DNA of 64,000 nucleotides from Candidatus Poribacteria bacterium (GCA_965214045.1 OZ243935.1:2794904-2858903); one strand, 5' to 3'. Counted from the first letter of the stretch, positions 9,401-46,385 are shown. A program made the numbers and translations. The notes: generated by a model from the letters alone, not told the origin.

Positions 9401-9436
9401 GCGATGTCACGCTGGTTTTCCGCGTTTCAGTTTTCT

Positions 9437-10390: not shown

Positions 10391-10597
10391 TCATACGGCT
10401 AACAACAACGCCTCAAAATGTTCTTCAGGGACTGGTAGCTCATCTTCTTCAAGTGCAACAATATAGCCCTCAATTGCCTCTCGAATACTGCTGACCACCT
10501 GTTGTTTGGTTTCAGCTTGACTGATACAACCGGGCAAACTGGGACATTCAGCAATCCAATAGCCATCTTCACCCGGATAAATAACCACTTGTCTCAT
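10391..10597 (-). CDS. HicB-family antitoxin (UPF0150)
   Basis: 68 aa. MRQVVIYPGEDGYWIAECPSLPGCISQAETKQQVVSSIREAIEGYI matches the HicB N-domain pattern. No adjacent HicA ORF of >=60 aa. Confidence 0.6.
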   Translation of the reverse strand: MRQVVIYPGEDGYWIAECPSLPGCISQAETKQQVVSSIREAIEGYIVALEEDELPVPEEHFEALLLAV

Positions 10598-10672
10598 TGT
10601 TTACCTCCAATACAAAAATCTTGCTTAGAGATCAATATTATGAAAAAACTCAATCTCTATCTATGCTATGAG

Positions 10673-31506: not shown

Positions 31507-31806
31507 GTAAGGCTTCAGATGCGTTTATTTGTGAGTCTCCGTTGTGGAAAAAAATAATTTGGCGGAAAGTGTAACATTTTTCGTTGCAACGATTATTGGT
31601 TTTCTTTTTTCTGAAAACATAACATACTATAAGGGTAACATGTATAAAGGCAAAGAGTCAAGGGCACATTAGATTTTTGAATTGTCTAAATTCGGATTAC
31701 CATAGACTTTGGGGGGGATTTTTGCTGGAAGTTTTACATACAGGAAAAAGATGCTACGATTCTACAAACGGTGGCATCTTTTCTGTTGTGAGATTGGCTG
31801 CTGAGT

Positions 31807-32892
31807 TCAACTTAACGCTTGTTGTAGACTTGCTTCAACCCCTTCAGCTGGTAATAGGCGTATCATTTCATCTGCCATCGCTTTTCCACCTACTTCTCCT
31901 GTTCTTCCTTCGTATTCACCATCCTTGCGCCAATCTATTTCTGATGCAGCTTTTACTAAACGTCTGACGTTGTCCCAATTCATACCTATTTCCTCGTTGT
32001 AGCTCCGCGAGAAAATTTGTGCCCCGGTATACGACCAAGCTATCAGACCTGTGAGCTCAAGGAGTTTGTACTCAAAAGCGTTTCTGCGACTGCCCTTTAT
32101 TTCAGGATCATCGAGTTTTTCAATATCTGCCCATTCTTCATGAAGATGGTCAGCGATTATCGTCCAGAGCTCGGACATGTACTCGGTTTTCTGATCAACA
32201 TCTAAATCTTGAACTCCTCCGAGTCCAAATAGGCGCGTAACTTGCTTTGCCACACTATGGAGAGCAAATAGATGTGTACGCTGCATTGATGTCTTTGTAA
32301 TCCTTCCTTTAAAGGGACTGTCATCTCGTTCATTAAGTTCCCATCCGACTTGTGCTTCTGGTTTCCCTTCAAGGTAAGCTGTTAGAGGTTTGGGTACTCC
32401 TTTTTGGTTGTCGTTGACATTGATGAATTCTTTTGCTTCTTGTTCAGGAGTGAGATTTGGAAGCAGAATGAAGGAAACTTCGCGTACATCACTGTCAGAT
32501 TCATACAGCTCTACAAAGCCACCAAGACGATGTTGTCCATCAAGGATAGCGGCTTTTCCTCGAATGATAAGTTTTCCAGTATTTTGTCCTTCCCCATTTG
32601 GTTTGAATTGCCAGTTACCACGTCCGGAGAGCAGAACGGGTGGAACTATACTATCGGGGTATTCTGTGAGAAACTTCGCGACCTGTTTCATACGAGTTAG
32701 TGAACCAGGTCTCTGGTAACCCTCTTCCACGATTTCATTAAGACAAGTTTTACGACTGGATTCAATAACGGGGACAAATGTCACGTTCTTAACCTTATCA
32801 GATTTAATTGTTCCAAATAAGTACTTCTGATTGCCTTGAGTCTTCAGAATGACTCCTTTTATTTCCCCAATTGTATTCGTTTTATTAGTCAT
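31807..32892 (-). CDS. DGQHR-domain protein (DndB-like)
   Basis: 361 aa. Contains AILDGQHRLGG, the signature of the DndB/DGQHR family. Last gene of the minus-strand defense cluster. Confidence 0.7.
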   Translation of the reverse strand: MTNKTNTIGEIKGVILKTQGNQKYLFGTIKSDKVKNVTFVPVIESSRKTCLNEIVEEGYQRPGSLTRMKQVAKFLTEYPDSIVPPVLLSGRGNWQFKPNGEGQNTGKLIIRGKAAILDGQHRLGGFVELYESDSDVREVSFILLPNLTPEQEAKEFINVNDNQKGVPKPLTAYLEGKPEAQVGWELNERDDSPFKGRITKTSMQRTHLFALHSVAKQVTRLFGLGGVQDLDVDQKTEYMSELWTIIADHLHEEWADIEKLDDPEIKGSRRNAFEYKLLELTGLIAWSYTGAQIFSRSYNEEIGMNWDNVRRLVKAASEIDWRKDGEYEGRTGEVGGKAMADEMIRLLPAEGVEASLQQALS

Positions 32893-32936
32893 TGATTAAT
32901 TCTCCTCAATGCAAGTGCGGTGTCGGTTTAACGGAA

Positions 32937-33227
32937 TCATTCTAACGTTTCAACCTCGTAAGGTGCCATCTGTGTCGCATCCGTTTTGCGGACGCGAAAT
33001 TGGATGTCCTTAAAGAGTCCATCATTATTTTTTCTCAAGCTTTCAAGGGATTCCCCTAAGGAACGTGCTGATATGTAGAAGATATACTCAAGGTCATTGC
33101 TGATTTTTTTTACGTGAAGAATAGGGGCATACCCCTTAAATGTCAAAACAACATCCGGTTCAGAGATAATTTCCAATTCTATCCATCCGGTCCCGACTTT
33201 TAAAGGCGGTGGTAATTCTTGAGGCAT
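32937..33227 (-). CDS. Hypothetical small protein (96 aa) within the defense cluster
   Basis: ORF only. 8-bp gap to the upstream gene. No recognisable motif. Confidence 0.3.
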   Translation of the reverse strand: MPQELPPPLKVGTGWIELEIISEPDVVLTFKGYAPILHVKKISNDLEYIFYISARSLGESLESLRKNNDGLFKDIQFRVRKTDATQMAPYEVETLE

Positions 33228-33235
33228 AGTTTCTC

Positions 33236-33751
33236 CTATAGATCATGCAGTGCTTCGGCAAGCTGATTTTGAATCGCTTGTTCCTCTGTAACAGGTTCGG
33301 ATTGCAGTAGGTCGTCAAGGGCATCAGAAAGGTTCCATATCGGGCTTTCGGAGCCTTCGTTTAGCATTTTCACGATGTGGGGGACACCTGCAGCTGCCAG
33401 ACCGTTGGCGATGTCCATCATGCGACGCGGCTTAAGGACAACCTCTAAGTTTCCTTCAACGGCTATCGCAATTAACATGATCGCTTGCGCCTGCCAGCCA
33501 TCCGTGTCAAAAATATTACCGCTAATGATGCTAACAGTGTCCTTTTTCTTTTTTGTTAAATGCATCGGTTTAAGATTCTGACGCGCTGCCAGCGAGAGTC
33601 CGGCAAACCAGAGATCCACCTTTCGTGGAAACGGAGTCTTAGCGGCTTTCGCACCTGCTCCCGTTTGGCAGTAATGATCGTAGTCATCCCGCTGTATAGT
33701 AGGTGATATGATTTGCATATTGCGAAAAGGATTATCGTAGTGTTGTGCCAT
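33236..33751 (-). CDS. Hypothetical protein (171 aa) within the defense cluster
   Basis: ORF tightly packed between the DndD-like and the 96-aa gene (9-bp and 8-bp gaps). No recognisable motif. Confidence 0.35.
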   Translation of the reverse strand: MAQHYDNPFRNMQIISPTIQRDDYDHYCQTGAGAKAAKTPFPRKVDLWFAGLSLAARQNLKPMHLTKKKKDTVSIISGNIFDTDGWQAQAIMLIAIAVEGNLEVVLKPRRMMDIANGLAAAGVPHIVKMLNEGSESPIWNLSDALDDLLQSEPVTEEQAIQNQLAEALHDL

Positions 33752-33760
33752 AGTGATCTC

Positions 33761-35884
33761 CTAAGATTCCGGCTGGATTTCTACCTCAACATCCGTGCGT
33801 CGCTTGCAGCGTTCACATTCTCCGAGGTCCTGGCACTCACACCGGAGTGCCTGCGGTTCATTTATATGTGGATCGTTTACTAATATAGTGGGGTAGTGTG
33901 CCGAATTTGTAATGGTGATGATACGTCCTGCTTCATCTGCTATAATATCTTCACAGTCTTTAATTTCGGAACGCGTCAGAAAGAGGATCAGTTGTGCACT
34001 TTCTTGAACAGCTGTTTTGAGAACGGAACGTTTGACAAACCCGTCCATCATTCCGAGGGGTGTATCAATCACGTTTGGTGCTATAACTTCACTGACTTTG
34101 GTGAGGGCGAGAATAAACGCTACCGTCAATGCTCTCCGAGAGGCACCATTTAAATCTTCCCTGGGGTTCAAAGCGCGTTTATTGGGTCCATAGACGAGAA
34201 TATTAAAATCTGGACTGATTTCTGCTTTCTGGATGATTGCTCCCTGTTCAGCGTCCGCGCCGATCATTTCCAGAAAAAATGTGTTCATCAACCGACTCAC
34301 TTCTTGCAATTCTTCGTTTGTGATTCGTTCGTATGAATTTTCAAGGATTTGCTCTATATCGCGCGTGGCATCTAATCTGGCTAATATTCCTTCCCCTCTT
34401 CTCTGTTTACTTATAAGGTTATTATGTGTTGCTGTTAAGGATCTCTGACTTTTTTTCAGGCGGTCAAGTTCTATTTCGTGCTCTATATGGGTACCGTTCA
34501 AAGAATCGCGTTGAGCAATATAGTCTTGCTTAGTGGCGCGAAGTTCTTGAATGTCGGTATCCCCTATACTCTCAAGTTGGACTTCCAATACGCTGAGTTC
34601 TTTTTCCAATTCTACGCGTCGAGCTTCAAGTTCATCGCGAAGGATTGCGTTTCTCTTGTATTCAGCGATCCAGTGTTGCTCATGGCTAATCTCTATCGGT
34701 TTCAGCTCCAATGAACCGAAATAAAGACCGGTCAGACGTGTTTGAAGTTCATCTGTTTCCCGACTCTCGCTAATGAGTCGTTCGATATGCGCTCTGCGCC
34801 GCTGTCCGTCTTCCGAGTGTTGATCCAGGGACTCTCCACAAATGCAGGCAGGACCTGTGAGTCGTTCTTCAAGCACAGGAATCGTTGTTTTCGGCAGTTT
34901 ACCCTGGTTGCTGAGTTCATCCAATTTCTCAAAACTTTTTTCCAAAACCGGGGCGAGCAGATCTCGGAATAGCGGCGGCTTTCTGAAGAATTGTGACTGC
35001 TCAGAAACCAGTTTTTCCTCTTGATTTTTGATTCTTTTTAGTTCTGCTTCTGATTTTTGCAGTCCGCGATTAAGTTCTTCTTGGTCCCCCTTAAGCAACG
35101 CTGCTTCAATGTCTTTATCAATTTCCGTTAGACTGTGATTGACTGCATCAAATTGAAGTTTCGCATCATCTCTTTCCTTTTCAAGACGTTCAACCTTTTC
35201 ATCTATCTCCCCCAATTCTGTAGCGATTTCGACAAGTTCTGTATCGGTTCCGATATTCTTTGAATCTCTATTGAGTCCAGCCATTGTCTTTTTCAAGTGA
35301 TCGAGAGCAGTCTCAATCACATCAAGGCCTAACAATGATTGAATGGCTTCCTGAACCTGTTTACGCTTATCTGTTCGTGAGTCTGCTTCAATGAAACTCA
35401 GTGCCCTGTCTCCGTCGGTGAAAAATACTTCACGCAAATTAGAGGGGACCAGGAGTCTGGCGATCTGTGCATCTGGTGTAGGTATTGGGGTGCTCCCAGT
35501 TTCTGTCAGTTCAAACAATTCTATTTTCGGGTTTTGTCTGAGCCCCTCGGTTGTCTCCTCTACGGAACGAATGAGGCAGTAGCGACTTGTCTTATTTCTA
35601 TTTGCCTCTGATGCAGGTGTTTCAAAATCGACTTGCACAGATATCGGAATTGCTTGACCATCAGGGACATCCCAATCAATTGGAAATAGTCGGTGTCCTC
35701 TACCTTTATCCGGTAGGGCATCATCGCCGTAGAGAGCCCATTGTAGCGCGTTTAAAATGGTCGTTTTTCCGCTCTCATTGGAGGCGCGAATGACCGTGAG
35801 TTTTCTGTCGTCACTGGTCGAAAAATCTAATCTTAGGTCTCGTAGCAGTCGAAAGTTTTGAAATCTTGCCCTGATGAGTTTCAT
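33761..35884 (-). CDS. DndD-like SMC/ABC-type ATPase
   Basis: 707 aa. N-terminus MKLIRARFQNFRLLRDLRLDF...LTVIRASNESGKTTILNALQWALYGD matches the DndD/AAA_23 Walker A region. Long coiled-coil middle. C-terminal signature/D-loop region. Confidence 0.65.
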   Translation of the reverse strand: MKLIRARFQNFRLLRDLRLDFSTSDDRKLTVIRASNESGKTTILNALQWALYGDDALPDKGRGHRLFPIDWDVPDGQAIPISVQVDFETPASEANRNKTSRYCLIRSVEETTEGLRQNPKIELFELTETGSTPIPTPDAQIARLLVPSNLREVFFTDGDRALSFIEADSRTDKRKQVQEAIQSLLGLDVIETALDHLKKTMAGLNRDSKNIGTDTELVEIATELGEIDEKVERLEKERDDAKLQFDAVNHSLTEIDKDIEAALLKGDQEELNRGLQKSEAELKRIKNQEEKLVSEQSQFFRKPPLFRDLLAPVLEKSFEKLDELSNQGKLPKTTIPVLEERLTGPACICGESLDQHSEDGQRRRAHIERLISESRETDELQTRLTGLYFGSLELKPIEISHEQHWIAEYKRNAILRDELEARRVELEKELSVLEVQLESIGDTDIQELRATKQDYIAQRDSLNGTHIEHEIELDRLKKSQRSLTATHNNLISKQRRGEGILARLDATRDIEQILENSYERITNEELQEVSRLMNTFFLEMIGADAEQGAIIQKAEISPDFNILVYGPNKRALNPREDLNGASRRALTVAFILALTKVSEVIAPNVIDTPLGMMDGFVKRSVLKTAVQESAQLILFLTRSEIKDCEDIIADEAGRIITITNSAHYPTILVNDPHINEPQALRCECQDLGECERCKRRTDVEVEIQPES

Positions 35885-36126
35885 TGCGTAACCTCTGTCG
35901 TTGGGTTATCTGTATCACGTTTCCTCGCGAGAAAATCGCCAGCCTTATGGCATGCTTGGTTTACCTGTTTTTGAATGGTTGTTCTTTGTGCTTGATGTTC
36001 TCTCTCGGCACTGAGGATTTCAACGATTGCCTCAAGCACTTTTTTCCTGTAGCCGTCGCATCTTTCCTCAATAGATTCACATTCATTGAGAATCATCTTT
36101 ACCATTTTTTCCTTGTTATATGACAT
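35881..36126 (-). CDS. Hypothetical small protein (81 aa), translationally coupled (ATGA overlap) to the DndD-like ATPase
   Basis: ORF only. 4-bp overlap with the downstream gene start. Confidence 0.3.
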   Translation of the reverse strand: MSYNKEKMVKMILNECESIEERCDGYRKKVLEAIVEILSAEREHQAQRTTIQKQVNQACHKAGDFLARKRDTDNPTTEVTQ

Positions 36127-36137
36127 AATCTCCTCCG

Positions 36138-38282
36138 TTATACGTAAAGGGTTCTAACCAGTTGGTCGATGTGGCTTAAGGGTCCATCAGGTCTACCAAA
36201 GTTCTTCGCAAGGTAAGCGAACGCTTGAATCCGTTTGAGTTCGGACGCTATTAAGGCATGTGCGCGAGTGTCCAGATTATCCAAATCCGGGGGTAGCGCG
36301 ATAAAATCGTGGATTTCACTGTGCGTTTTGCTGGTCTTACTACACGTGCGGAGCAGCCTCCCGCGCCGCTGCGTCCACTGCCGTTCCACTGTGGTGCTCG
36401 CCAAAATAAAAGCCTTCTCAATTTCTGGGATATTCACGCCTTCATCAAGTACACGCTTTGCGGTTAAGACACGCAGCGTTCCTTCTTGAAAGGACTGAAT
36501 AATCTGTGCGGTTTTTTTACGGTCACCTGTTTCTTTGTAGGTCAGTTGATGAAACAGCACCCCGTGTCTGTTCAGTAAGGCGTTAACAGCTTTCAGCTGC
36601 TGCGGTGCCTTGTCAGAGGCGTAAATCAAGGTATGCTGGAGTTTGTTGAAATCTTCGCGTTGCGTTAAGACATCTTCTAACACGGCGACCTTATTTTCTG
36701 CGTTCTCCAAAAGTGCCCGACGGTCTCGGAGCAATTTCATAAGGTACACATTGTCCGCATCCTCGTTCTCCTGCATCCACGCATTTTTCCTGATCTCTTC
36801 CGTGAGAGCATACCACTCCTCCATTTCGTCCTCTGTGAGTTCTACCGGATGCACGTAGTATTCGTATTCAACGAGGCATCTGCCGATGGCTTCCTCAAGT
36901 GTGAACTCAAAAACAATAGGTCCGAAAAACGCAAATAACTGATCCGTGCCTTCTTCATCGTATTGACGGATCGGAGTTGCGGATAAACCTAATCGATAAT
37001 CGAAAAATTCAGGCGGATCGGTGATGAATCCTTCACTTCCGAGATTGTGGACTTCATCAGCAATGAGTAAGGTTTTACAATCGAATTTCTTCAGTTCCTC
37101 TTTAAAATTAGGACTGCAAAGGGTCTTATGAGAAACAATGGCGATCTCAATGTCGCTACTACCGAATCGAAGCCTCCGCTCAAGTTTCTTAAGTTCAGCT
37201 GCACGTCCCCTTGCTCCATTCACCTCAGTCAGATTAACTGGCTTCAGCCCAAAGGATGAAATTTCATCACACCACTGTTGGATGAGGGGTATATAGGGCG
37301 CGGCAACGACGATAAGCAGTGGTTTCTCCGTCTCATAGAGTCTATGTGCACAAATCATGGCAGCGATGGTTTTTCCTGAACCTGTTGCCATTTCTAATAT
37401 CCCTTGATGACCGCCTTCACACCACGCTTTCACAGCTCTCCCTTGATGTTCAAAGTCACCCTCCTCAAATTCCAGATATGATGGTATTGTAAATGAAGGA
37501 CGGGGCACCTTAAAGTCGTAAGTTGTAGAAGCTTCCTGTATAGCAGCAGCTTCCGCTTTGTAGAGTGTGTGAAAGTCGTCCTCTGTCGGTGGGATATCGG
37601 AGTTATAGGTTTTCAACAGATTTTCCTTAATTGCTTGTGGTATCGGAATCACAGTGCACGTCTCATCGTAATTCGTCCAAAATTGCTTGAACTGATCGCA
37701 CAATTTTTCTGTAATATAGTATTGGTTACCATCTTCCCACGATTTGGAGATGGACATCTGCTCAATATTTTTCTGAATACCGGCGTAGGTCATATTGCTG
37801 GAGCCGTGTGCTGCGATAACATCGTCACCCTCGTGAAAGAGCCAGACCTTGGGGTGGAAAAGCGCATCTTTCATCAAAGCGATTTTGATTTCCACGCGTC
37901 TGTGACGCAGCATCCATGAGAGGCATTTCAGCGTATGCTGCGCAATAGCGTTTTCGGTAACAACAAAATCTTCTAAAGCTGTGTTGACGATATCCTCTAC
38001 GGAGGCTACGCCTTCTGCTATTGCCGCTTTGTCTTCAGGGCGGAGCAGCGGACTGATAATCAGACGCAAACTTTCGTCTGCACAGTTTATGAACGTTGCT
38101 AATCCTGGCGCAAGGGACACCAGAATTTCACTCGAAAAGAAACCTATCATGCAATCAACATGCGTAGCAGACTGAAAGCACGGAATTAGGACATCTTCTG
38201 TCGCGGGATCCTTTGGCAACATGTAAAGGGGTCGAATATCGGGTATCGCCCGAAGTGTCATCCCATGATTTTTTCTTTTCAT
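36138..38282 (-). CDS. Phospholipase-D-family nuclease domain fused to an SF2 (DEAD/DEAH) helicase
   Basis: 714 aa. N-terminal HxK...GSxN (HPKVWLFHEG...GSSNMTYAG). Helicase motifs I MATGSGKTIAAM, II IADEVHN, VI QRRGRLLR. Confidence 0.65.
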   Translation of the reverse strand: MKRKNHGMTLRAIPDIRPLYMLPKDPATEDVLIPCFQSATHVDCMIGFFSSEILVSLAPGLATFINCADESLRLIISPLLRPEDKAAIAEGVASVEDIVNTALEDFVVTENAIAQHTLKCLSWMLRHRRVEIKIALMKDALFHPKVWLFHEGDDVIAAHGSSNMTYAGIQKNIEQMSISKSWEDGNQYYITEKLCDQFKQFWTNYDETCTVIPIPQAIKENLLKTYNSDIPPTEDDFHTLYKAEAAAIQEASTTYDFKVPRPSFTIPSYLEFEEGDFEHQGRAVKAWCEGGHQGILEMATGSGKTIAAMICAHRLYETEKPLLIVVAAPYIPLIQQWCDEISSFGLKPVNLTEVNGARGRAAELKKLERRLRFGSSDIEIAIVSHKTLCSPNFKEELKKFDCKTLLIADEVHNLGSEGFITDPPEFFDYRLGLSATPIRQYDEEGTDQLFAFFGPIVFEFTLEEAIGRCLVEYEYYVHPVELTEDEMEEWYALTEEIRKNAWMQENEDADNVYLMKLLRDRRALLENAENKVAVLEDVLTQREDFNKLQHTLIYASDKAPQQLKAVNALLNRHGVLFHQLTYKETGDRKKTAQIIQSFQEGTLRVLTAKRVLDEGVNIPEIEKAFILASTTVERQWTQRRGRLLRTCSKTSKTHSEIHDFIALPPDLDNLDTRAHALIASELKRIQAFAYLAKNFGRPDGPLSHIDQLVRTLYV

Positions 38283-38318
38283 ATTGGTTTACAGGTATAG
38301 AAATTGATGTGATTAAAA

Positions 38319-39572
38319 TCAGTGTTGGTTTGCCCCTTTGCGAGCGTTACATTGTCTGCAAAGTGTTTGGGCGTTTTCAAGAGTTGTTTTCCCACCATCC
38401 GCGTGAGGAGTTATGTGATCAGCTTCCATTTTATCAAATTCGATTTTTTGGTTGCATCCTTGACAAGTCTCATTGTCTCTACGCCAAATCACAATTCGTT
38501 CGTCACGAGAGAAAGCACGTTGTGAGTCTTTTCGCACTAAGTGCTGGATGTCTCGGAGGAATCGTCTTTTATATACTTCATGTCGCTTTTCGAGGTTAGG
38601 TTTTGTCCCACCTGAGCGGATGAAAGCTTCAATGTAATCATACATATCTCTATCCCAAAGACTTTTGCCTGCAGCAAGTAATTCACTGGGATCTGATATA
38701 ACTGACCGCCTCTCTTCTTCAAAGGCAACGTAAAAATCAGCGAAGTCAATCTCGTGATCTCGGATAACATAGGACTTATTCATTTCCGAAATTAGTAAAT
38801 ATAAGTCTACAAAGCCCCACTTAACGTCCATGTCGGGAGGACGATTTTCCAAAACTTTTTCCATATATCCTAAGTGCCGTCGAACTTTTTTGGCAACAGA
38901 TCCATTGTGGTCAAAATTCTGATTATTCCTGTACATTTTGGTGAGACTCGGTGCCTTGACATCCGTTGGTCCTTGTGCTATCTCCAGACGCGTTACTACA
39001 GCGGCCAGGTCATGCCACCCAAATCTCTTTTCTGAAAGGAAGGTTAATGGAAAAACACGATGGTTATCTCCTAAGTTTGCTATGAAATCTCGCATTTTAC
39101 CCGGCATAGCGTTTCGTTTTTCTACAGGATTCAAAGACAGTCCTTCTTGCAATCTTAGAAAAAGATCTCGTATATCTAAATCTGATGCATCCTCAACCTC
39201 AACTAAATTAAGCTCAAATATTGCAAATTGATCCTGAATATCGCTTGGCAATTCTGAGAATTTCTTACCTGATAAGTCCCCAAAATTAGGTATGTCTCTT
39301 GATGCTTCACCCAGGACATACTGATCATCATGGAAATCCCAAATAGCATTCAGCCTTTGCTGTCCATCAACAACCTCATGCTCATACTCAGAATCAGACG
39401 ATACTCGGAGGTAAAATTTGGGCATATCATATTGTCGAAGTATTGAGTCAATAAGCAATTGCTTTTTTGCCTCATTCCAAACTGGAGTCCGCTGATACTG
39501 AGGTCTTGGATTTATCTTTGGCTTCCTTCTGGCAATTGTTTCAATTGTCCAATGTCTTGGTCGAGTTTTCAT
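38319..39572 (-). CDS. DUF262 (ParB-like, DGQQR motif) plus C-terminal HNH nuclease; GmrSD / SspE-like
   Basis: 417 aa. N-terminal VVDGQQRLNAI. C-terminal CQGCNQKIEFDKMEADHITPHADGGKTTLENAQTLCRQCNARKG. Confidence 0.65.
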   Translation of the reverse strand: MKTRPRHWTIETIARRKPKINPRPQYQRTPVWNEAKKQLLIDSILRQYDMPKFYLRVSSDSEYEHEVVDGQQRLNAIWDFHDDQYVLGEASRDIPNFGDLSGKKFSELPSDIQDQFAIFELNLVEVEDASDLDIRDLFLRLQEGLSLNPVEKRNAMPGKMRDFIANLGDNHRVFPLTFLSEKRFGWHDLAAVVTRLEIAQGPTDVKAPSLTKMYRNNQNFDHNGSVAKKVRRHLGYMEKVLENRPPDMDVKWGFVDLYLLISEMNKSYVIRDHEIDFADFYVAFEEERRSVISDPSELLAAGKSLWDRDMYDYIEAFIRSGGTKPNLEKRHEVYKRRFLRDIQHLVRKDSQRAFSRDERIVIWRRDNETCQGCNQKIEFDKMEADHITPHADGGKTTLENAQTLCRQCNARKGANQH

Positions 39573-39621
39573 GGGTCAGCCCTACTCCGATTGCATAAAT
39601 AGATTCTGTGCAGTAGAAATA

Positions 39622-40473
39622 TCACTTATGGCACGCCAAACACGGTTCCTCATCATCCTCATCGTCAAGCACATCCGTGAAGATTTGCACCAAACGTTGA
39701 TTCGGTCTCTCGGATCGCTTGGCGGCAAGGGCTGCTGTAGCCTCCGCCTTAATCTGCGCGACACGCTCCGGTCGCGACAACTCCGCTAAACTCTCGCCTT
39801 GACACCACGTGAATTGTTGATCTGTCCTGGCATTTTCATTAGGCTCTTCTTCATATTTCCTCGCGAGCGCAAAGAGATCAGGATGCTTTTCTAATAAGCC
39901 GACCCACTCGGCTTTACGCTGGAAGAAACAGAAATAACACCCGGAACGCGTCCGCCACTCGTAATACGTCGGAAGCCCGAGCCCGCTCTCCTCCAGAATC
40001 CGATAGACATCCTCTTTCGTGATGCCGTCCTCTTTGAACGGATACTTCGGTTCAATGTTCCGTAAATCCGTGGTTCTCAGCGGTTTGTAACCCGTCCTGT
40101 CTTCGTCTGCACGGATGGCGATGTAGTGATACGCTTTGTCTGCGCCGATGTATTCCTCGAAAGGTATGATTTTCAGGTTAGCTGTGCACCAGCGGACTTG
40201 GGAGGACGGCAAGAGCCCCCCGTATAAGGCTAACCAGTGGTCAAAACTGCGGTCTTCATTCGGATCCGGATTCATATTGAGACGGACAATCGGTTTGCCG
40301 AGATGCGCTTCTAACCGATCCAGGTATTCATACGTCTCTGGAAGTTCCTTACCTGTATCCGAGAAAAAGTATTCCATCTCTATTTCCGGTTTTTCTCTAC
40401 GCATGTAAACCGCGAGGGCGGAACTGTCTTTGCCGCCAGAGAGTCCGAGGACGTGTCGGATATTTTCTGCCAT
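39622..40473 (-). CDS. PAPS-reductase-family ATP pyrophosphatase (SspD/DndC-like)
   Basis: 283 aa. PP-loop LSGGKDSSALAVYM. C-terminal CxxC (CLACHK). Confidence 0.65.
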   Translation of the reverse strand: MAENIRHVLGLSGGKDSSALAVYMRREKPEIEMEYFFSDTGKELPETYEYLDRLEAHLGKPIVRLNMNPDPNEDRSFDHWLALYGGLLPSSQVRWCTANLKIIPFEEYIGADKAYHYIAIRADEDRTGYKPLRTTDLRNIEPKYPFKEDGITKEDVYRILEESGLGLPTYYEWRTRSGCYFCFFQRKAEWVGLLEKHPDLFALARKYEEEPNENARTDQQFTWCQGESLAELSRPERVAQIKAEATAALAAKRSERPNQRLVQIFTDVLDDEDDEEPCLACHK

Positions 40474-40546
40474 GTCTCCTCCTACGAGTCAGTTGTGCAG
40501 AGGCGTATAAAACACGAGGCACAACCGAACAGGGTATGCTACGGTG

Positions 40547-43500
40547 TTAAATTGCCCTTTCGTTCTCAAATGCCTGCATCAGTTTTTGTGAGATACGCGC
40601 CAAAACAGCGAGTCGGAATCCGTGATTTTTCTCTGCGTCCAGTTCATCAAAAGCCGTCTCAATCGCGCGTTCCAATCCAACTGCCTGTGCCTCGGCAGTT
40701 GCGGGTAAAGTGACGACCTGTTCTTGTTCGGGTTGGTTTCGGGTTGTAATACCGATCCGAATCGCTTCACCTGTCGAGGTTTCAGTATGACCGGGTTGAT
40801 CGTAAGACACGGCTTCAAGGTGTCGGAACTTCCGTGCAAGATGTGAAAGATTATTTTGGAATTGGGCTTTATCTGTGTCTAACCATTTATCCGGCGGTTT
40901 TTTCGCGAGATAACTCGCGAGAGCGACAAGCCAGCTTTTGAAATCGTGTCCACCGCTATGGATGTTGATTAAGAATCCCTTGAGGTCGGTTTCGATCGCG
41001 ACCGGTAACAGGACTTCAGCTCTACAGACGAGGGCATCGCGGAGTGTCTCTGATGTGAGATCAAACGCTGTCGCTAACATCTCCTCAAGAGAATCCAATA
41101 GACGGTCGTATGCCTGATTTAACTCGGATAACGCCCCTTGCAGCGTCCCGAAAAATTGTGAAACGCCGTGGGGATCCGTTGCTGTCTCTGCCTTAAAAGC
41201 CGGGAACCCGAGTGCTGCTGGCAGCTGTTTAAAGAGGAGTTCATCAGGTTCGCGTGCATTTCCGAGGGTGGCACGGAGATTTTGAGCAGCTTCACTGAGT
41301 TCTTGCGTGGTCCGCGTGTACTGCGGGAGTTCGCTGATCGTCTGGACCAACGGCACGACAACCGTCAAGAGATCCGGTTTTTCAGAGGCTTCAGCGGTAT
41401 CGAGCGCGCCTAAAAATTGGGGGAACAGGTCGGCACGGATATCCGTCATCCGAAAACGTTTCAGTTCAAAGCGTTCTGGTCTTTTAATTAACCTTTCAAA
41501 GACGGGGATCGTCCAGTTCGGGATGAAGGATCCGTTTTCATAGAGGGCGATCTCTGTTTTGTAGTGAAGTATCACCGCACATAACAGGATAGGCAGCGGT
41601 CCCTCGCGGGCACCAATAGGCGGTTTCATCAGGTCTGTGTAGAGGTTAGGCAACGGCTGCCGTCTGTCTTCACACGTTTCAAGGAACTGCTCAATCGCTT
41701 CCCATATCGGTCGGACATCGTTTGTCGCGTCAGGTGAGGGCGGATGAAACCGCCACATATCCGATCCTGGAATTTGACGATGGATGCCTGTTTCTAAGAG
41801 AAGCGACCGGTAGATACTCATTTCAGCGGGGTAACCCTCTATACCGAGATTATCTTCGGCTTCCTTTTCAAGCATCGCTTGGATGAGTTTCCGCCTCGCG
41901 GTTGTAACAGCACCGGAGACTTTCCGTCTGTTAATGAGTTCGTGCCGAATCACAGGCGTTTTGGGGTAGACAGCATCGCAGATTTCTGAGAGATATCCAT
42001 TTCTCTCACGCAGCGACTTGATGGGGATCTCTTTTCCCTTATGATACCATTGACACGGATTGTCAGTACCGCCTTTACCTTTAAAGAGTGACGTTACTTC
42101 TTCAGATACACTGCGTTCCGCTTCTGAGGAACGGATTGCGAGTTCACGTCTGGCGGTTTTATCGCCTTCAAGTTCTTCCGTATTCTGCGAGACCCAGTGC
42201 AAACACGCAAGTTCTCTGACGGCACCGTATAGCGTATCTGTGGATGTTGGCATCGCAAGGAGTACCTCCTCGCGGCTTTCGAGGTTTTCACGTTTCGCTT
42301 TTTCGAGGATTTGCTTACCTTCGTTTTCATCCCCCGGCAATGCATAGAGCACAAGTCCATCTGCCGAATCAAGAGGTGCTGCGAGGGTATCCTCAAAGTT
42401 GTCAAGGTCTGTATAACGCACTGTGAAATAGCGGAGGGTGCCTTTCTCAAAAAGATGTCTGCGTGCGATGAGAGGGCGCGGCGGTATGAAATCTGACAAA
42501 TAGGTCATCAATCTTTCGTTTCGATTGAGCTGCCCTTCTGCATGCTGGAGCCGCTCTTCGATATTAATATCGCTGCCTTCCCAGAGCGCATAGGTCTTAT
42601 TATGCCGCCGATGGATCACAATTGAACGGGCTTGGATGTCTTCAAGTGTCCTGCTAAATTCCTCCTTAAATCCTGCCGTCTGATCGTCTAAAGCATAACG
42701 GAGGACCCCTTCTGAAGCGTTTAGGTTTCTACTGACTTCTCCGACAATCCCAAGCAGACCGATGGTTTTGATGAGTTTCACGAGCAGCGGCGATGGATCC
42801 GCCAATCGGTTGATAGCCATCTCAACTTCGAGCCACCGGTCCCCTTCGCGCGAGGTATAGAGTCGGTTTCCCAGACTGAGCTGGAGATAATCGTAGAGGT
42901 CGGGGATTGAAAACATCGGCAGCGTGTTCCCGTCATAAGACCGGTTTTCCAGAAAATCGCGGAGTCCATGCGGTTCAACTGCATTCAGGAAAGCAAAGAG
43001 AGAGCGTTCATTTTGTGCGAATTTTCGGAAAACGGGTCCGATGAGGAGTGCTACAGTTGGGTGAAGCGGTAGACAATTTCGGAGCAACTCGCGAAAGGCA
43101 GCCGCATCGCCGAATGGATTGAGATTGAGATCAGAGGCAGGCAGCAGCTGCAGGTCTCCGATACCTTCCGTGTCCTTGTTTTGGATAGCGGAGCCAATGA
43201 GTTGAAGGATTTGATCTGCCGGTTCCACGAAGGCGAGATCTTCAAACCGTCCTTGAACCTTTGCCCATTCCTCGCGTTGTGAGGCTGCTGCTCTGTTTGC
43301 ATAGTGTTCAAAAGCTTGATGCAAGATAGTCATGAAAAAGAGGGGTGTCTCTGCACTCCGTGTCGCAAATTCAGCGAGGGTTTGTAGCACAAACACATCG
43401 CCTTGCGCAGGATGTTGTGCGGCGTGTTCAAGGAACTTGCCAAGTTCGTCAACCACGAGTAACAAACCGCCACCGCCTTTTTTCTTGATTGTCAGTGTTG

Positions 43501-44056
43501 CAGATTCAAAAAGTGCTGTGACTTCAGTTGCTGACAAGGGATTGCCGTTTTTCTCTGTTTTCAAGAGTGCTTGGATGTCTTTTCGCAGGGAGTGTCTTGC
43601 GGTGATATGAAAGGTTTGAAGTCCGTGTTCTAATCCTTGCAAGAGGGCGTGTGTAATGGATGCGCGTTCGCCAGAGATAAGCACTGGACAAAAACCAACT
43701 GCCGTTTTTTCTCTGTTCCCGTTTAGGCTCAAAAAACGTTCGTATAATGGCGGATCGCTGTGTTTGAGTAATTTCAGAGCGTGTTTTGTTGTGGCGGTGT
43801 CAGTGTTTCCGAAGAGTTTTGCGGCGAAGAGTGCGAACGCAGATTTCCCCGCTCCGTAAGGACCCGTGAGGGACCACGCTTTTGATGTCGCCTCGTTCTC
43901 TCGTGCTGTGATAAGCCGAGCAAGGGTCTCCCGTGCTTTGACAGTCACAACGTAGCCATCTAAGGCGTTTTCGGTATAGAAATCGCGTGCCAGATGAACA
44001 GAACGTTGAAAGCGTTTGGTGATGTGAAAAATATCTGACAAGGGTGTGTTAGCCAT
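40547..44056 (-). CDS. Large P-loop ATPase (SspC/BrxC-like, DUF499-type)
   Basis: 1169 aa. Walker A LTGPYGAGKSAFALF (~aa 66). Walker B LLLVVDELGKF (~aa 210). 8-bp overlap with the upstream DUF4007 gene. Confidence 0.55.
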   Translation of the reverse strand: MANTPLSDIFHITKRFQRSVHLARDFYTENALDGYVVTVKARETLARLITARENEATSKAWSLTGPYGAGKSAFALFAAKLFGNTDTATTKHALKLLKHSDPPLYERFLSLNGNREKTAVGFCPVLISGERASITHALLQGLEHGLQTFHITARHSLRKDIQALLKTEKNGNPLSATEVTALFESATLTIKKKGGGGLLLVVDELGKFLEHAAQHPAQGDVFVLQTLAEFATRSAETPLFFMTILHQAFEHYANRAAASQREEWAKVQGRFEDLAFVEPADQILQLIGSAIQNKDTEGIGDLQLLPASDLNLNPFGDAAAFRELLRNCLPLHPTVALLIGPVFRKFAQNERSLFAFLNAVEPHGLRDFLENRSYDGNTLPMFSIPDLYDYLQLSLGNRLYTSREGDRWLEVEMAINRLADPSPLLVKLIKTIGLLGIVGEVSRNLNASEGVLRYALDDQTAGFKEEFSRTLEDIQARSIVIHRRHNKTYALWEGSDINIEERLQHAEGQLNRNERLMTYLSDFIPPRPLIARRHLFEKGTLRYFTVRYTDLDNFEDTLAAPLDSADGLVLYALPGDENEGKQILEKAKRENLESREEVLLAMPTSTDTLYGAVRELACLHWVSQNTEELEGDKTARRELAIRSSEAERSVSEEVTSLFKGKGGTDNPCQWYHKGKEIPIKSLRERNGYLSEICDAVYPKTPVIRHELINRRKVSGAVTTARRKLIQAMLEKEAEDNLGIEGYPAEMSIYRSLLLETGIHRQIPGSDMWRFHPPSPDATNDVRPIWEAIEQFLETCEDRRQPLPNLYTDLMKPPIGAREGPLPILLCAVILHYKTEIALYENGSFIPNWTIPVFERLIKRPERFELKRFRMTDIRADLFPQFLGALDTAEASEKPDLLTVVVPLVQTISELPQYTRTTQELSEAAQNLRATLGNAREPDELLFKQLPAALGFPAFKAETATDPHGVSQFFGTLQGALSELNQAYDRLLDSLEEMLATAFDLTSETLRDALVCRAEVLLPVAIETDLKGFLINIHSGGHDFKSWLVALASYLAKKPPDKWLDTDKAQFQNNLSHLARKFRHLEAVSYDQPGHTETSTGEAIRIGITTRNQPEQEQVVTLPATAEAQAVGLERAIETAFDELDAEKNHGFRLAVLARISQKLMQAFENERAI

Positions 44057-45032
44057 AACACCTCTCTAAAAGTTCCATTTCATTAAGATCTCTCTGTCGA
44101 TACAGTTGTTTCAGACCCGTCGTTTCATCGTATTCAAACGCGCCATCTGTGAGTTCTGCGAGGTCCTCAAGATAGACCGTCAGGGTATCCTCATCTAATC
44201 TGAAAACGCGTCCAGGACTCGATGGGGCATACATCAGTTCTGAGAACGCCAGTGAGTTTCTCTGGGAGAATTCGTTCGCCGAAAACGTGTCTTGTGCCCA
44301 AGGGTATGGATGTTTCCAAAATGTGTTCAATGCCCAGGCGACGACTGCCGTGGAAAGTGTTTCTTTTTCGCCACGCTGGAATTCATAACCATCTCCACCC
44401 ATTAATTCCGAGATCAGGTTCAACTCGACGAGCGGGCAGTCGAAGGTATCTTCAACGACAGCAGTGGTATCGCGTGATTGACAGTAAGTTCGGAGAAAAC
44501 AATTGACATCGCGCCGGAGTGTATTGTCGGAGACCAACCGCATCCCGGGTCTCTGTTGCTGTGCCCACCTGTAGACCTTTTGTGTAAATATATCCGGCAT
44601 AAACGGATTATCTGTTAAAATATTGAATGCCCAATACCAGGCTGTGGCTTGGGTGCCGCCTGTTGCGATCTGGTAGTGGATGATCCATAGCGTCGCCGGG
44701 TCTTCAAGGTATGGGTCGAATCCTTCTTCAGCAAAAATGTCTTTACCGAGTTGAGTCGGTGCAAATTGCCCGCGTCGGGACTGGGCGGTATCCTCTTTGA
44801 TGAGTCGAGTTGCCCGACACCAATGCCGAATGGAGTCCACCATGTTTTTTCCGACCCCTAAAGTAACGGAAGCATCCGCAGCTGAAAAAATGGTCGGATT
44901 TTCTATCACGGCATCAACGCCTTTCTTCAACCATGTATAGCGAAAAGGGAAGGTCTGGTGTCCTGAAAAAGAGGGGGAGATCGGTGGGATGTTACGCATA
45001 ACCTGCCCCCCTGGAGTATCTGGGCGGGTCAT
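44049..45032 (-). CDS. DUF4007-family protein (SspB-like)
   Basis: 327 aa. N-terminus SFSGHQTFPFRYTWLKKG matches the DUF4007 signature as I recall it. First gene of the operon. Confidence 0.5.
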   Translation of the reverse strand: MTRPDTPGGQVMRNIPPISPSFSGHQTFPFRYTWLKKGVDAVIENPTIFSAADASVTLGVGKNMVDSIRHWCRATRLIKEDTAQSRRGQFAPTQLGKDIFAEEGFDPYLEDPATLWIIHYQIATGGTQATAWYWAFNILTDNPFMPDIFTQKVYRWAQQQRPGMRLVSDNTLRRDVNCFLRTYCQSRDTTAVVEDTFDCPLVELNLISELMGGDGYEFQRGEKETLSTAVVAWALNTFWKHPYPWAQDTFSANEFSQRNSLAFSELMYAPSSPGRVFRLDEDTLTVYLEDLAELTDGAFEYDETTGLKQLYRQRDLNEMELLERCYG

Positions 45033-45159
45033 GCGAAAAGCAGGACGCGTCGAGCGTAACGCGGAACAATGAAAATAGCCCTTCGGTTAAGCGAGCGCGC
45101 GGGATAGCGGCAGCTGCAATAAAGGATTTATATTGTGTTTTACTTAATTTTTGTAAAGT

Positions 45160-45169
45160 GGGGGGGGGG
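45160..45169. repeat. G10 homopolymeric tract ~130 bp upstream of the defense operon start
   Basis: GTGGGGGGGGGGT read directly at 45160-45169 in the 460-bp intergenic region. Confidence 0.85.
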
Positions 45170-45491
45170 TAGATTGGCTTGTTAAATCAGGTGCCCAGAC
45201 GGCTTCCGGGGGTACGAATAACCTCTTGAGGCAAGGATTCTTATCAAGCATACGTGCTATTCTGATTATAGTGTTCATATCTCGATTTTTCATTCGCTTT
45301 ATTGATTAAGTACAGAGTGATGGGAATATTCAGATTTTTGTTCCTGATGTCAAGTTTACTTAAAATTTTAGCACGGATTCGTATTAAATGTCAAATTTTT
45401 TTGCTTTACTGCATCTATCATTAGTTTTTAGAATTTTATATGGATCGGATGTTCTAAAAGTTTAAGGGATATCGCAGGAAAAATTGGAGGG

Positions 45492-46385
45492 TTAGTAAAT
45501 TGAAAGTTCTCGGTAGTTTCCTTGAAACACTTCCCTAACATGCCAACCAATGAACTGTACCTCTGGATAATGGGATTGTCTTTGCGGGAGAAGAAGCGTT
45601 TTGCCGTGATACCGCTGCAGCCATTCCTTAAAGCCTTTTGTTCCGTGCGCGTCATCTGATACAAGGATTTGTCGTTGCTTGGATAGCGTAAAAGCTCCGC
45701 GATCAAATAATTCGTGATGTAACACGCATAAAGCAAGGCCATTCACTGCTTCACTGGGACCGCCATGCGATTTCCATTTGATATGTGCAGCTTCTAACGC
45801 GATAGGCGTATTTCCTAATTTCACATCGAAGCCGCATACTGCACATTTACGCTCGTAAGCTCTTAGGATGTTTTCTCGGAAATTGAGAGAGCGTCTTTTC
45901 GTCTCAAAAACTTGGAATGGTGGTTGAATGTTGACAGCTTGTAAAATTTCGCTGTGGCGTGTGAGAGGGAAGTGATCATCCAGCAAATCGTAGATTATTT
46001 CAAAGGCGAGTCTTGAATCGTTTTGAAGTTGATTTGCGATTGATTTAGGGAAACCACCGACTCCATGATGTCGTAAATCGGTTACGTAGGCATCTCCACT
46101 GGAAGTTTGTCGAATTCGATCGGTATTCCTTATCTCCCAGATTTCGTCGTTTTGCAGCCGCCAAAATGGGTGTTGAGGATGATAACTTTTGCGCCACGGT
46201 CCAAATTCTCTCAGCAAATTGCGAAGATCGTCCTCTGTAGCCTCAAATGAAATGTGTTTATCTTCACCGCTCAGCAATTTTCCGATTGCATACAATATTA
46301 ACAGTGGCTTGTGGGCTGCCCTTTGGTCGCCTCTTTTCCATACATTCAGATTCTGGAATTTATGAATGATTTCTTCTCGTGTCAT
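45492..46385 (-). CDS. HNH endonuclease with an N-terminal DNA-binding/sensor domain (type IV restriction-like)
   Basis: 297 aa. C-terminal CAVCGF...LEAAHIKWKSHGGPSEAVNGLALCVLHHELFDRGAF HNH motif. N-terminal HKPLLILYAIGKLL domain of unknown specificity. Confidence 0.6.
   Translation of the reverse strand: MTREEIIHKFQNLNVWKRGDQRAAHKPLLILYAIGKLLSGEDKHISFEATEDDLRNLLREFGPWRKSYHPQHPFWRLQNDEIWEIRNTDRIRQTSSGDAYVTDLRHHGVGGFPKSIANQLQNDSRLAFEIIYDLLDDHFPLTRHSEILQAVNIQPPFQVFETKRRSLNFRENILRAYERKCAVCGFDVKLGNTPIALEAAHIKWKSHGGPSEAVNGLALCVLHHELFDRGAFTLSKQRQILVSDDAHGTKGFKEWLQRYHGKTLLLPQRQSHYPEVQFIGWHVREVFQGNYRELSIY

What the first reader, a model, noticed from the sequence alone, without database searches (positions are those of the whole stretch)
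31807..36126. DGQHR (DndB-like) plus DndD-like SMC ATPase module with three small unknown ORFs
A DndD-type ATPase and a DGQHR protein are the hallmarks of Dnd-type systems. Here there is no DndC, DndA or DndE. Instead an 81-aa ORF is translationally coupled upstream, and 171-aa and 96-aa ORFs are wedged between the two, with 8-9-bp spacings.

This could be an SspFGH-like or other PT-sensing / modification-regulating module. It could also be a distinct ATPase-sensor pair of unknown function. The small proteins carry no motif I recognise.
Basis: inference. Interest (0 to 1): 0.75.

Follow-up and report, generated by a model that had tools for sequence, protein, structure and literature searches.

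The report
Ssp-linked PbeABCD plus DGQHR remnant
The five genes are real, but they are the tail of one long phosphorothioate-defence operon.

Summary
All five ORFs exist at the stated coordinates on the minus strand. Each has homologues, and dN/dS is 0.1-0.4. They are not one self-contained DGQHR/DndD module.

They end a roughly 13.5-kb co-directional cluster: sspB-sspC-sspD, a DUF262(DGQQR)-HNH gene, then pbeA-like (HKD nuclease + SF2 helicase, 36138-38282, outside the finding). The five ORFs follow:
- **81 aa:** PbeB, the small protein.
- **707 aa:** PbeC, a CxC-type ABC ATPase with a conserved CICGE hook.
- **171 aa:** PbeD, a divergent relative of TIGR04062.

This part is the described PbeABCD / "CxC ABC-ATPase" system. 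Here it is coupled to Ssp rather than Dnd, and that pairing recurs in other genomes.

The 96-aa and DGQHR genes belong to a different module, 96 aa - 455 aa - DGQHR. The 455-aa protein is a GHKL ATPase with a likely nuclease tail. This trio sits beside sspBCD in many lineages, with or without Pbe. In the window the 455-aa gene has been cleanly deleted, leaving a 44-bp scar. I found the trio in no family library or paper available to me.

The SspFGH reading is rejected. Verdict: a known kind in a new pairing, plus a truncated candidate new Ssp partner module.

The parts
45365..45394 (-). Promoter-like site upstream of sspB (TTGACA-18-TAAAAT, 11 of 12 positions, TG extension). It is a candidate operon promoter.
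   Evidence: This is a consensus match only, and function is inferred.
44049..45032 (-). sspB (327 aa, DUF4007). Its 3' end overlaps the start of sspC by 8 nt.
   Evidence: Pfam DUF4007 7e-86.
40547..44056 (-). sspC (1169 aa, BrxC-like ATPase).
   Evidence: PADLOC SspC, E=0, 1081 bits.
39622..40473 (-). sspD (283 aa, PAPS-reductase-type ATP pyrophosphatase, the DndC counterpart).
   Evidence: PADLOC SspD 2.8e-113; Pfam PAPS_reduct.
38319..39572 (-). DUF262 (GmrSD_N, motif VDGQQRL) fused to a C-terminal HNH nuclease, 417 aa. It is a compact protein with SspE/DndI-like architecture.
   Evidence: Pfam GmrSD_N 1.7e-16 and HNH 4.7e-13; motif read. Absent from L001, L003 and L013.
36138..38282 (-). 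pbeA-like gene: HKD/PLD nuclease domain plus SF2 helicase, 714 aa. It is the missing first gene of the module and lies outside the finding's coordinates.
   Evidence: PADLOC PbeA 6.4e-198; TIGR04095 dnd_restrict_1 8e-113 (below its cut-off of 600); Pfam PLDc_2, ResIII, Helicase_C.
35881..36126 (-). pbeB-like small protein, 81 aa. Its stop overlaps the pbeC start.
   Evidence: Lies between PbeA and PbeC in every Pbe locus examined. 73-79% identical in L001-L003. 35% identical (1e-17) to the 74-aa gene in the same position on plasmid CP099618.1. dN/dS 0.13-0.43. No library hit.
33761..35884 (-). pbeC-like CxC-clade ABC ATPase, 707 aa. It has Walker A NESGKTT, a CICGE hook at residues 345-349, signature LNGASRRAL, Walker B VIDTPLG, and a C-terminal Cys tail.
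   Evidence: PADLOC PbeC 5.5e-54 and Pfam AAA_23. The motifs are conserved in 7 orthologues.
33236..33751 (-). pbeD-like gene, 171 aa. It is a divergent relative of TIGR04062, 'DNA phosphorothioation-associated protein 4'.
   Evidence: A family profile (A5) hits canonical PbeD proteins at 3e-12 to 2e-9 (for a nominal database of 1,000 sequences; 14 were actually searched), and hhalign gives 95.9%. The Pontibrevibacter target is TIGR04062 at 6.7e-48. There are 306 and 260 homologues.
32937..33227 (-). 96-aa protein of unknown fold, the first gene of the 96 aa - 455 aa - DGQHR module.
   Evidence: 107 homologue clusters; alignment A8. Always found next to the 455-aa and/or DGQHR gene. dN/dS 0.13-0.18.
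32893..32936 (-). Deletion scar. It keeps the first ~30 nt (including the ATG that overlaps the 96-aa stop) and the last ~20 nt of the region that holds a 455-aa GHKL-ATPase gene in relatives. About 1.33 kb is missing.
   Evidence: Alignment against the 5' and 3' junctions of L001 and L002. The 455-aa gene is present in L001, L002, L003, L013, L027 and L035.
31807..32892 (-). DGQHR (ParB-superfamily, DndB-like) protein, 361 aa. It is the last gene of the cluster.
   Evidence: TIGR03187 4.2e-33; Pfam DndB 1.7e-16. Orthologues are 49-95% identical.
31736..31789 (-). Hairpin followed by a U-run just after the DGQHR stop. It is the likely operon terminator.
   Evidence: RNA fold -15.6 kcal/mol, z = -2.8, 0 of 200 shuffles as stable.

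Best explanation
Window 31736-45394 (minus strand) is one compact phosphorothioate (PT) defence operon built from separable modules. The module assignments below rest on tool results. Every mechanistic step is inferred from the cited papers on homologous systems, and nothing was assayed here.

1. **SspBCD.** It writes single-strand PT marks on host DNA, using a cysteine desulfurase encoded elsewhere.
2. **DUF262(DGQQR)-HNH protein.** It has the architecture of an SspE/DndI-type PT-sensing NTPase-nickase.
3. **PbeABCD-type system (36138-38282 plus 33236-36126).** The CxC ABC ATPase (707 aa) and its small partner PbeD (171 aa) would form the DNA-scanning core. The HKD nuclease/SF2 helicase PbeA would be the effector that blocks replication of unmarked DNA. 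The 81-aa PbeB would be the small regulatory subunit.
4. **Third Ssp-linked module.** The 96-aa and DGQHR genes are its outer two genes. In relatives its middle gene encodes a 455-aa GHKL/MORC-like ATPase, followed by a coiled coil and a probable PD-(D/E)xK-like domain. I infer a ParB-like NTPase acting as PT or DNA sensor plus a GHKL clamp-nuclease effector, that is, a 'split SspE'. In this genome the effector gene has been lost, so module 4 is probably disabled or reduced to a DndB-like regulatory role.
For: **Gene identities.**

**PbeC.** It has the CxC hook of the clade defined in PMC10853773, conserved in 7 orthologues.

**PbeD.** Homology to PbeD of canonical Dnd-Pbe and archaeal Pbe loci is shown, and the Pontibrevibacter target is confirmed as TIGR04062.

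**PbeB.** Homology to the equivalent gene of a cultured Ssp-Pbe plasmid. Gene sizes match the published PbeB (66 aa) and PbeD (152 aa) (PMC6459918).

**Ssp-Pbe adjacency.** It recurs in L001, L003, L013, L025, L026, L027, L029 and L012.

**Module 4 is separable.** The trio sits next to sspBCD without Pbe in L004, L008, L009, L010, L015 and L018. Pbe occurs without the trio in L025, L026 and L029.

**The 455-aa protein.**
- AlphaFold model with pLDDT 91.
- Foldseek agrees on the GHKL fold.
- Invariant residues include N31 and G71, with D70 nearly invariant, in the N-terminal domain, and E335, E337, K344, D368, E388, E390 in the tail.

**Deletion.** The scar is shown.

**Selection and operon structure.** All genes are under purifying selection. 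Gaps between genes are at most 73 bp, with one promoter-like site and one terminator.
Against: - No biochemical or phage-challenge data exist for any Ssp-linked Pbe system or for the trio.
- I could not reproduce the published claim that PbeD is a DndE-type double ribbon-helix-helix protein. The AlphaFold model is poor (pLDDT 52), there is no sequence or profile link to Pfam DndE or PDB, and hhalign against two DndE sequences gave nothing.
- PbeB and PbeD miss every library model at its cut-off.
- A canonical Dnd-Pbe plasmid has another DGQHR protein (TIGR04172) beside PbeABCD, so a functional link between DGQHR proteins and Pbe cannot be excluded.
- Forms with 96 aa + DGQHR and no GHKL gene also exist in L020 and L021, so the pair may work without the 455-aa protein.
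- No SspA is in the window.
Confidence: 0.72

Rival explanations
1. The five genes form one self-contained sensor pair in which the DndD-like ATPase and the DGQHR protein work as a complex, assisted by three small subunits.
For: All five genes are co-directional and tightly spaced. A different DGQHR protein (TIGR04172) lies beside PbeABCD on plasmid NZ_CP049815. Four Poribacteria loci keep Pbe and the DGQHR module adjacent.
Against: The two halves occur apart. Pbe occurs without the DGQHR gene in L025, L026 and L029. 96 aa/455 aa/DGQHR occurs without Pbe in six loci. Synonymous divergence from L001 is 0.10-0.13 for the DGQHR half and 0.48-1.0 for the Pbe half, so the halves have different histories. 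PbeA, a core member, lies outside the proposed module.
Confidence: 0.1
2. The module is an SspFGH-type restriction partner of SspABCD.
For: It lies directly downstream of sspBCD, as sspFGH does (PMC8092258).
Against: That paper reports that SspF, SspG and SspH show no significant homology to annotated genes, apart from a Walker A motif in SspF and an FtsK/SpoIIIE-like C-terminus in SspH. The window genes are HKD-SF2 helicase, CxC ABC ATPase and DGQHR, with strong PbeA and PbeC hits. No SspF/G/H model appears in the PADLOC tables, although the PbeC table was cut at 25 of 75 families.
Confidence: 0.03
3. The DGQHR protein, with the 96-aa protein, is a DndB-like transcriptional or NTP-dependent regulator of the ssp/pbe operon. 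The GHKL gene is an optional add-on, so the window's two-gene form is fully functional.
For: DndB is a DGQHR regulator of dnd genes (cited in PMC10853773). The 96 aa + DGQHR pair without a GHKL gene recurs in L020 and L021. The window's DGQHR gene keeps all invariant residues, and dN/dS is 0.19.
Against: The protein misses the DndB equivalog model (no TIGR03233 hit). In most loci it is translationally coupled to the GHKL gene. In L019 and L020 a gene with a weak nuclease-type Pfam match lies directly downstream of the DGQHR gene (HSDR_N_2, barely above its cut-off, and HEPN_Swt1, below its cut-off). This pattern would fit a sensor with interchangeable effectors better than a regulator.
Confidence: 0.15

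Closest known systems
PbeABCD (Xiong et al. 2019, PMC6459918), also called the CxC ABC-ATPase-centred system (Rakesh, Aravind and Krishnan 2024, PMC10853773)
   Same: The gene order and sizes match: HKD-SF2 helicase (714 aa), small protein (81 vs 66 aa), CxC ABC ATPase (707 aa), small partner (171 vs 152 aa). PADLOC gives strong PbeA and PbeC hits. The CxC hook is present. PbeD homology holds at profile level.
   Different: It is joined to SspBCD (single-strand PT) instead of DndCDEA or a methylase. PbeB and PbeD are a divergent subclade that misses the NCBIfam and PADLOC models. A DUF262-HNH gene lies between sspD and pbeA. I found no paper in the searchable library that describes an Ssp-Pbe pairing.
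SspABCD-SspE and IscS-DndBCDE-DndI (PT-sensing DUF262 NTPase + HNH-type nickase; PMC9646914, PMC11662687)
   Same: A ParB-superfamily NTPase-like protein is encoded next to PT-writing genes and paired with a nuclease. The window's 417-aa gene has the same DGQQR + HNH logic in one chain. The 96 aa/GHKL/DGQHR trio would have that logic split over several chains.
   Different: The DGQHR protein is a separate polypeptide of the DndB/DGQHR branch, not DUF262. Its partner in relatives is a GHKL ATPase with a different, probably PD-(D/E)xK-like, domain. That partner is absent from the window.
DndB, DpdB and TIGR04172 'DNA phosphorothioation-associated DGQHR protein 1'
   Same: The DGQHR domain is shared (TIGR03187 115 bits; Pfam DndB 61 bits).
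   Different: It scores far below every equivalog cut-off: TIGR04172 43 vs 450, DpdB 40 vs 300, and no TIGR03233 hit. Its neighbours differ too: there is no DpdA, no DndCDE, and no 174-aa membrane partner as on NZ_CP049815.
Prokaryotic MORC/MutL-like GHKL ATPases of restriction-type conflict systems. This lead comes from my own knowledge of work by Iyer, Abhiman and Aravind (2008) and was not read here.
   Different: No Pfam HATPase_c model detects it. It is small, has a coiled coil and its own C-terminal domain, and is tied to a DGQHR protein and sspBCD. The gene is not in the window.
SspABCD-SspFGH (PMC8092258)
   Same: It occupies the position downstream of sspBCD and has a presumed restriction role.
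   Different: The proteins are unrelated (see the rival explanation).

Membership tests
PbeABCD / CxC ABC-ATPase system | PbeA: HKD (PLD) endonuclease domain fused to an SF2 helicase | tested here: met
   Window 36138-38282: PADLOC PbeA 6.4e-198; Pfam PLDc_2 (25.8 bits, just under its cut-off of 27), ResIII, DEAD, Helicase_C; TIGR04095 378 bits, below its cut-off of 600.
PbeABCD / CxC ABC-ATPase system | PbeB: small, fast-evolving protein encoded between PbeA and PbeC | tested here: met
   The 81-aa ORF is in that position. It is 35% identical (1e-17) to the 74-aa gene in the same position of the Ssp-Pbe plasmid CP099618.1. Equivalents of 71-88 aa occur in L025-L027. There is no hit to any library model. 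Disorder was not assessed.
PbeABCD / CxC ABC-ATPase system | [quoted passage not shown] | tested here: met
   PADLOC PbeC 5.5e-54. CICGE at residues 345-349, midway between the Walker A and signature/Walker B motifs, is invariant in 7 orthologues. Zinc binding was not tested.
PbeABCD / CxC ABC-ATPase system | PbeD: ~150-aa partner encoded directly after PbeC (TIGR04062 dnd_assoc_4) | tested here: met
   Profile A5 of the 171-aa family hits PbeD of Halobaculum (3e-12), Halococcus (1.4e-9) and Pontibrevibacter (2.3e-9); these E-values are for a nominal database of 1,000 sequences, and 14 sequences were actually searched. hhalign gives 95.9%, E 6e-9. The window protein itself does not reach the TIGR04062 model.
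PbeABCD / CxC ABC-ATPase system | PbeD is a DndE cognate with two ribbon-helix-helix domains (PMC10853773) | tested here: inconclusive
   The AlphaFold model has pLDDT 52. Its secondary-structure order, strand-helix-15-residue loop-helix, then strand, helices and a long C-terminal helix, is compatible but unreliable. There is no link to Pfam DndE or PDB. hhalign against two DndE sequences gave 0.15%.
PbeABCD / CxC ABC-ATPase system | Coupled to DndCDEA or a cytosine methylase as the modification arm | tested here: not met
   The modification genes here are sspB, sspC and sspD. No dndC/D/E or methylase is in the operon.
PbeABCD / CxC ABC-ATPase system | PT-dependent block of viral DNA replication | not testable with these tools
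   This needs expression and phage challenge.
SspABCD-SspFGH | Homologues of SspF (Walker A protein), SspG and SspH (FtsK/SpoIIIE-like C-terminus) | tested here: not met
   No SspF/G/H model is in the PADLOC tables (the PbeC table is truncated). The domain content differs from the description in PMC8092258. No direct alignment to the FF-93 proteins was made.
DndB (TIGR03233) / DGQHR_dnd_1 (TIGR04172) / DpdB (NF041060) | Score above the equivalog cut-off of the family model | tested here: not met
   TIGR04172 43 vs 450; DpdB 40 vs 300; no TIGR03233 hit. Only the general DGQHR domain model is passed, at 115 vs 58.85.
96 aa - GHKL(455 aa) - DGQHR trio (unnamed, defined here) | All three genes present and translationally coupled | tested here: not met
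   The middle gene is replaced by a 44-bp scar in the window. It is intact in L001, L002, L003, L004, L008, L009, L010, L013, L018, L027 and L035.
96 aa - GHKL(455 aa) - DGQHR trio (unnamed, defined here) | Adjacent to sspBCD | tested here: met
   This holds for the window and for every trio or duo locus with enough flanking sequence, except L006/L007.
SspE / DndI (applies to the neighbouring 417-aa gene) | N-terminal DUF262 with a DGQQR motif plus a C-terminal HNH-type nuclease | tested here: met
   GmrSD_N 1.7e-16, HNH 4.7e-13, motif VVDGQQRL. The C-terminal domain is a classical HNH, not DUF1524, and the protein is about 200-350 aa shorter than SspE or DndI.

The most novel reading that the evidence does not exclude
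The 96 aa - GHKL/nuclease - DGQHR trio may be a new restriction or sensor partner of SspABCD, alongside SspE and SspFGH. In this reading a DGQHR ParB-like NTPase reads PT-marked DNA and controls a MORC-like GHKL clamp that carries a nuclease domain. The SspBCD-PbeABCD pairing would be a further undescribed way of reading single-strand PT. The window would then capture a natural effector knockout of the trio inside a three-layer PT defence operon.
Probability: 0.4. Interest if true: 0.65.

Novelty: new variant of a known kind. Interest (0 to 1): 0.5.

Why it matters
PT-based immunity is currently described as Dnd + DndFGH/DndI/PbeABCD and Ssp + SspE/SspFGH. This locus shows two further things.

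- **PbeABCD also pairs with the Ssp writer.** Hundreds of related PbeD clusters exist, all of those inspected were Ssp-linked, and one lies on a plasmid of a cultured Sphingomonadaceae strain. This may explain some of the "solitary" pbeAC loci reported in 2019. It also raises the question of how a system first tied to double-strand GpsATC marks reads single-strand PT.
- **An unannotated three-gene module recurs next to sspBCD.** It has no Pfam, PADLOC or PHROG match for two of its three proteins and occurs in Poribacteria, Gemmatimonadetes and other lineages. It is a concrete candidate for a new PT-dependent effector.

For the window itself the message is more modest: most of the finding is a known system, and the unusual part is truncated.

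Tried and rejected
- **171-aa structure.** The 27-sequence alignment gave pLDDT 52, too poor for a fold search, so none was run on it.
- **Linking the 171-aa family to DndE.** PDB profile searches, a Pfam scan of 80 remote members, a PADLOC scan of 27 members and hhalign against two DndE sequences all gave nothing.
- **96-aa family.** No hit in Pfam, PADLOC, PHROGs, NCBIfam or PDB profiles.
- **455-aa family.** No hit in Pfam, PADLOC, PHROGs, NCBIfam or PDB by sequence. Only the fold search worked.
- **afdb50 fold library.** It was unavailable.
- **Literature.** Searches for DGQHR+SspABCD, DndB+GHKL and SspABCD+MORC found nothing relevant. sspBCD+pbeA found only a review table and an unrelated paper.
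- **SspA.** I looked for it in the window and found none; 54348-55439 is a class I/II aminotransferase.
- **Plus-strand ORFs inside 31807-36126.** All are at most 109 aa and lie within the minus-strand genes, so I did not pursue them.
- **L034.** It looked like a decayed copy, but the contig has 5x coverage, so the frameshifts may be assembly errors.

Full report
**Observation**

The 81-aa stop overlaps the 707-aa start (ATGA). The next gaps are 9, 8 and 44 bp, and each start has a GGAG-type ribosome-binding site.

The 707-aa protein is DndD-like (PADLOC PbeC 5.5e-54, DndD 2.3e-33). The 361-aa protein carries a DGQHR domain (TIGR03187 4e-33).

The small ORFs are genuine genes:
- The 171-aa and 96-aa families have 306 and 107 homologue clusters.
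- The 81-aa ORF is conserved in syntenic loci.
- dN/dS against related loci is 0.12-0.43 for all of them.

The genes are the last five of a co-directional, tightly packed cluster (gaps at most 73 bp):
- sspB (DUF4007, 7e-86)
- sspC (PADLOC E=0) and sspD (2.8e-113)
- a 417-aa DUF262 protein with a DGQQR motif and a C-terminal HNH
- a 714-aa HKD/PLD nuclease + SF2 helicase at 36138-38282, which hits PADLOC PbeA at 6.4e-198

A promoter-like site lies upstream of sspB. A hairpin with a U-run follows the DGQHR stop. The statement "no DndC" is therefore misleading, because SspD is the DndC counterpart of the Ssp pathway. The best relatives are Candidatus Poribacteria genomes.

**Three of the five genes are PbeB, PbeC and PbeD**

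Xiong et al. (PMC6459918) defined PbeABCD as a helicase, a 66-aa protein, an SMC-like ATPase and a 152-aa protein. Rakesh, Aravind and Krishnan (PMC10853773) redefined these as HKD-SF2 helicase, a small fast-evolving protein, a CxC-hook ABC ATPase and a DndE cognate. The window matches gene for gene.

- **PbeC.** It has CICGE at residues 345-349 between its ATPase half-sites. This motif, Walker A, the signature motif and Walker B are all conserved in seven orthologues.
- **PbeD.** The 171-aa family profile hits PbeD proteins of archaeal and Dnd-linked Pbe loci (3e-12 to 2e-9 for a nominal database of 1,000 sequences; hhalign 95.9%). One of these, from Pontibrevibacter, is TIGR04062 "DNA phosphorothioation-associated protein 4".
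- **PbeB.** The 81-aa protein is 35% identical to the equivalent gene of an SspABCD-PbeABCD cluster on Sphingomonadaceae plasmid CP099618.1.

I could not confirm the published DndE-fold claim for PbeD.

**Ssp-Pbe coupling recurs**

Eight independent loci with members of this PbeD family carry ssp genes next to the Pbe genes. I found no paper that describes this pairing.

**The 96-aa and DGQHR genes belong to another module**

In the three closest genomes (L001-L003), and also in L013, L027 and L035, a 455-aa gene lies between them with overlapping stops and starts.

The same trio sits beside sspBCD with no Pbe genes in L004, L008, L009 (Gemmatimonadetes, with sspA), L010, L015 and L018. Pbe occurs without the trio in L025, L026 and L029. 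The two halves also differ in divergence from L001: dS is 0.10-0.13 for the trio genes and 0.48-1.47 for the Pbe and Ssp genes.

In the window, the 44 bp between the two genes keep the first ~30 nt and the last ~20 nt of the 455-aa gene region. This is a clean ~1.33-kb deletion.

**What the lost gene encodes**

The 455-aa family (92 clusters) has no sequence-level annotation. It nevertheless models at pLDDT 91.
- A coiled coil follows, then an alpha/beta domain with invariant E335, E337, K344, D368, E388 and E390, and a weak NucS match. I read that domain as PD-(D/E)xK-like. This is inference.

The DGQHR protein falls far below the DndB, DpdB and TIGR04172 cut-offs. In other lineages the gene directly downstream of the DGQHR gene has a weak nuclease-type Pfam match: HEPN_Swt1 in L020 (below its cut-off) and HSDR_N_2 in L019 (barely above it). 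That would fit a sensor with interchangeable effectors.

**Mechanism (inferred)**

1. SspBCD marks host DNA.
2. The DUF262-HNH protein, PbeABCD and, in relatives, the trio each read that mark.
3. For Pbe, the ABC ATPase-PbeD pair would scan DNA and PbeA would act on unmarked DNA.
4. For the trio, the ParB-like NTPase would sense and the GHKL-nuclease would execute.
5. In the window the trio lacks its effector.

**Verdict**

This is a known system in a new pairing, plus a truncated candidate new module.

Noticed in passing
window 38319-39572 (-): A 417-aa DUF262 (motif VVDGQQRL) + HNH protein lies between sspD and pbeA. It is a compact gene with SspE/DndI-like architecture and is absent from the otherwise syntenic L001, L003 and L013.
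   Followed up: partly
window 45492-46385 (-): A 297-aa HNH_2 protein lies just upstream of sspB. It is 65% identical to a gene in L004 that carries the ScoMcrA sulfur-binding domain (PF26340) plus HNH_2, so it is probably a PT-binding type IV restriction enzyme.
   Followed up: partly
window 46755-48353 (+) and 52479-54125 (-): Two paralogous AAA_35 ATPases flank the island side of the window. The first also has weak, sub-threshold matches to PD-(D/E)xK-type nuclease models (Pfam PDDEXK_9 and NERD, and PADLOC Cas4) in its C-terminal part. They may be further defence genes.
   Followed up: no
window 31807-40473 compared with L001: Synonymous divergence is mosaic: 0.10-0.13 for the 96-aa and DGQHR genes, 0.48-1.0 for the pbe genes and 1.47 for sspD. 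This points to recent recombinational exchange of the distal module among Poribacteria.
   Followed up: partly
L031 (NZ_CP049815.1 64932-66727): On a canonical DndBCDEA-PbeABCD plasmid, a convergent pair lies next to PbeD: a 174-aa hydrophobic, possibly membrane protein plus TIGR04172 'DGQHR protein 1'. A second DGQHR pair (163 aa with a weak GIY-YIG match + 422 aa) follows the trio in L008. DGQHR proteins with small partners seem to be a recurring accessory of PT islands.
   Followed up: partly
L020 559-2872, L021 1948-3326, L019 1655-3970: Some DGQHR orthologues (49-52% identity) lack the GHKL gene. L020 has a HEPN_Swt1-like 308-aa gene downstream and L019 has an HSDR_N_2 416-aa gene downstream. 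L020 also has a full-length SspE-like gene next to sspD.
   Followed up: partly
L006 and L007 (about 2500-11650 and 800-9940): A distant 100-aa + 455-aa pair (30% identity) sits after a split PLD protein, an SF2 helicase, a HATPase_c_3 protein and a SWIB protein, separated from them by an insertion-sequence element. No DGQHR or ssp gene is visible.
   Followed up: no
window 33761-33880 (-), C-terminus of PbeC: There is a conserved Cys-rich tail (RCECx6CxxCxRR) in addition to the CICGE hook. It may be a second zinc site. I did not see it mentioned in the passages of the two Pbe papers that I read.
   Followed up: no
L001 11426-15028: Between the DGQHR gene and the flanking HEAT-repeat gene, L001 carries a Type ISP-like coupler/methylase fragment and an IS605 OrfB/TnpB gene that the window lacks. 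The island sits in a conserved chromosomal context (PhyH, HAD, ankyrin genes) in L026, L034 and L035.
   Followed up: no
window 16290-17432 (-): A YhgA-like transposase (Transposase_31, 1.2e-27) lies about 14 kb beyond the island.
   Followed up: no
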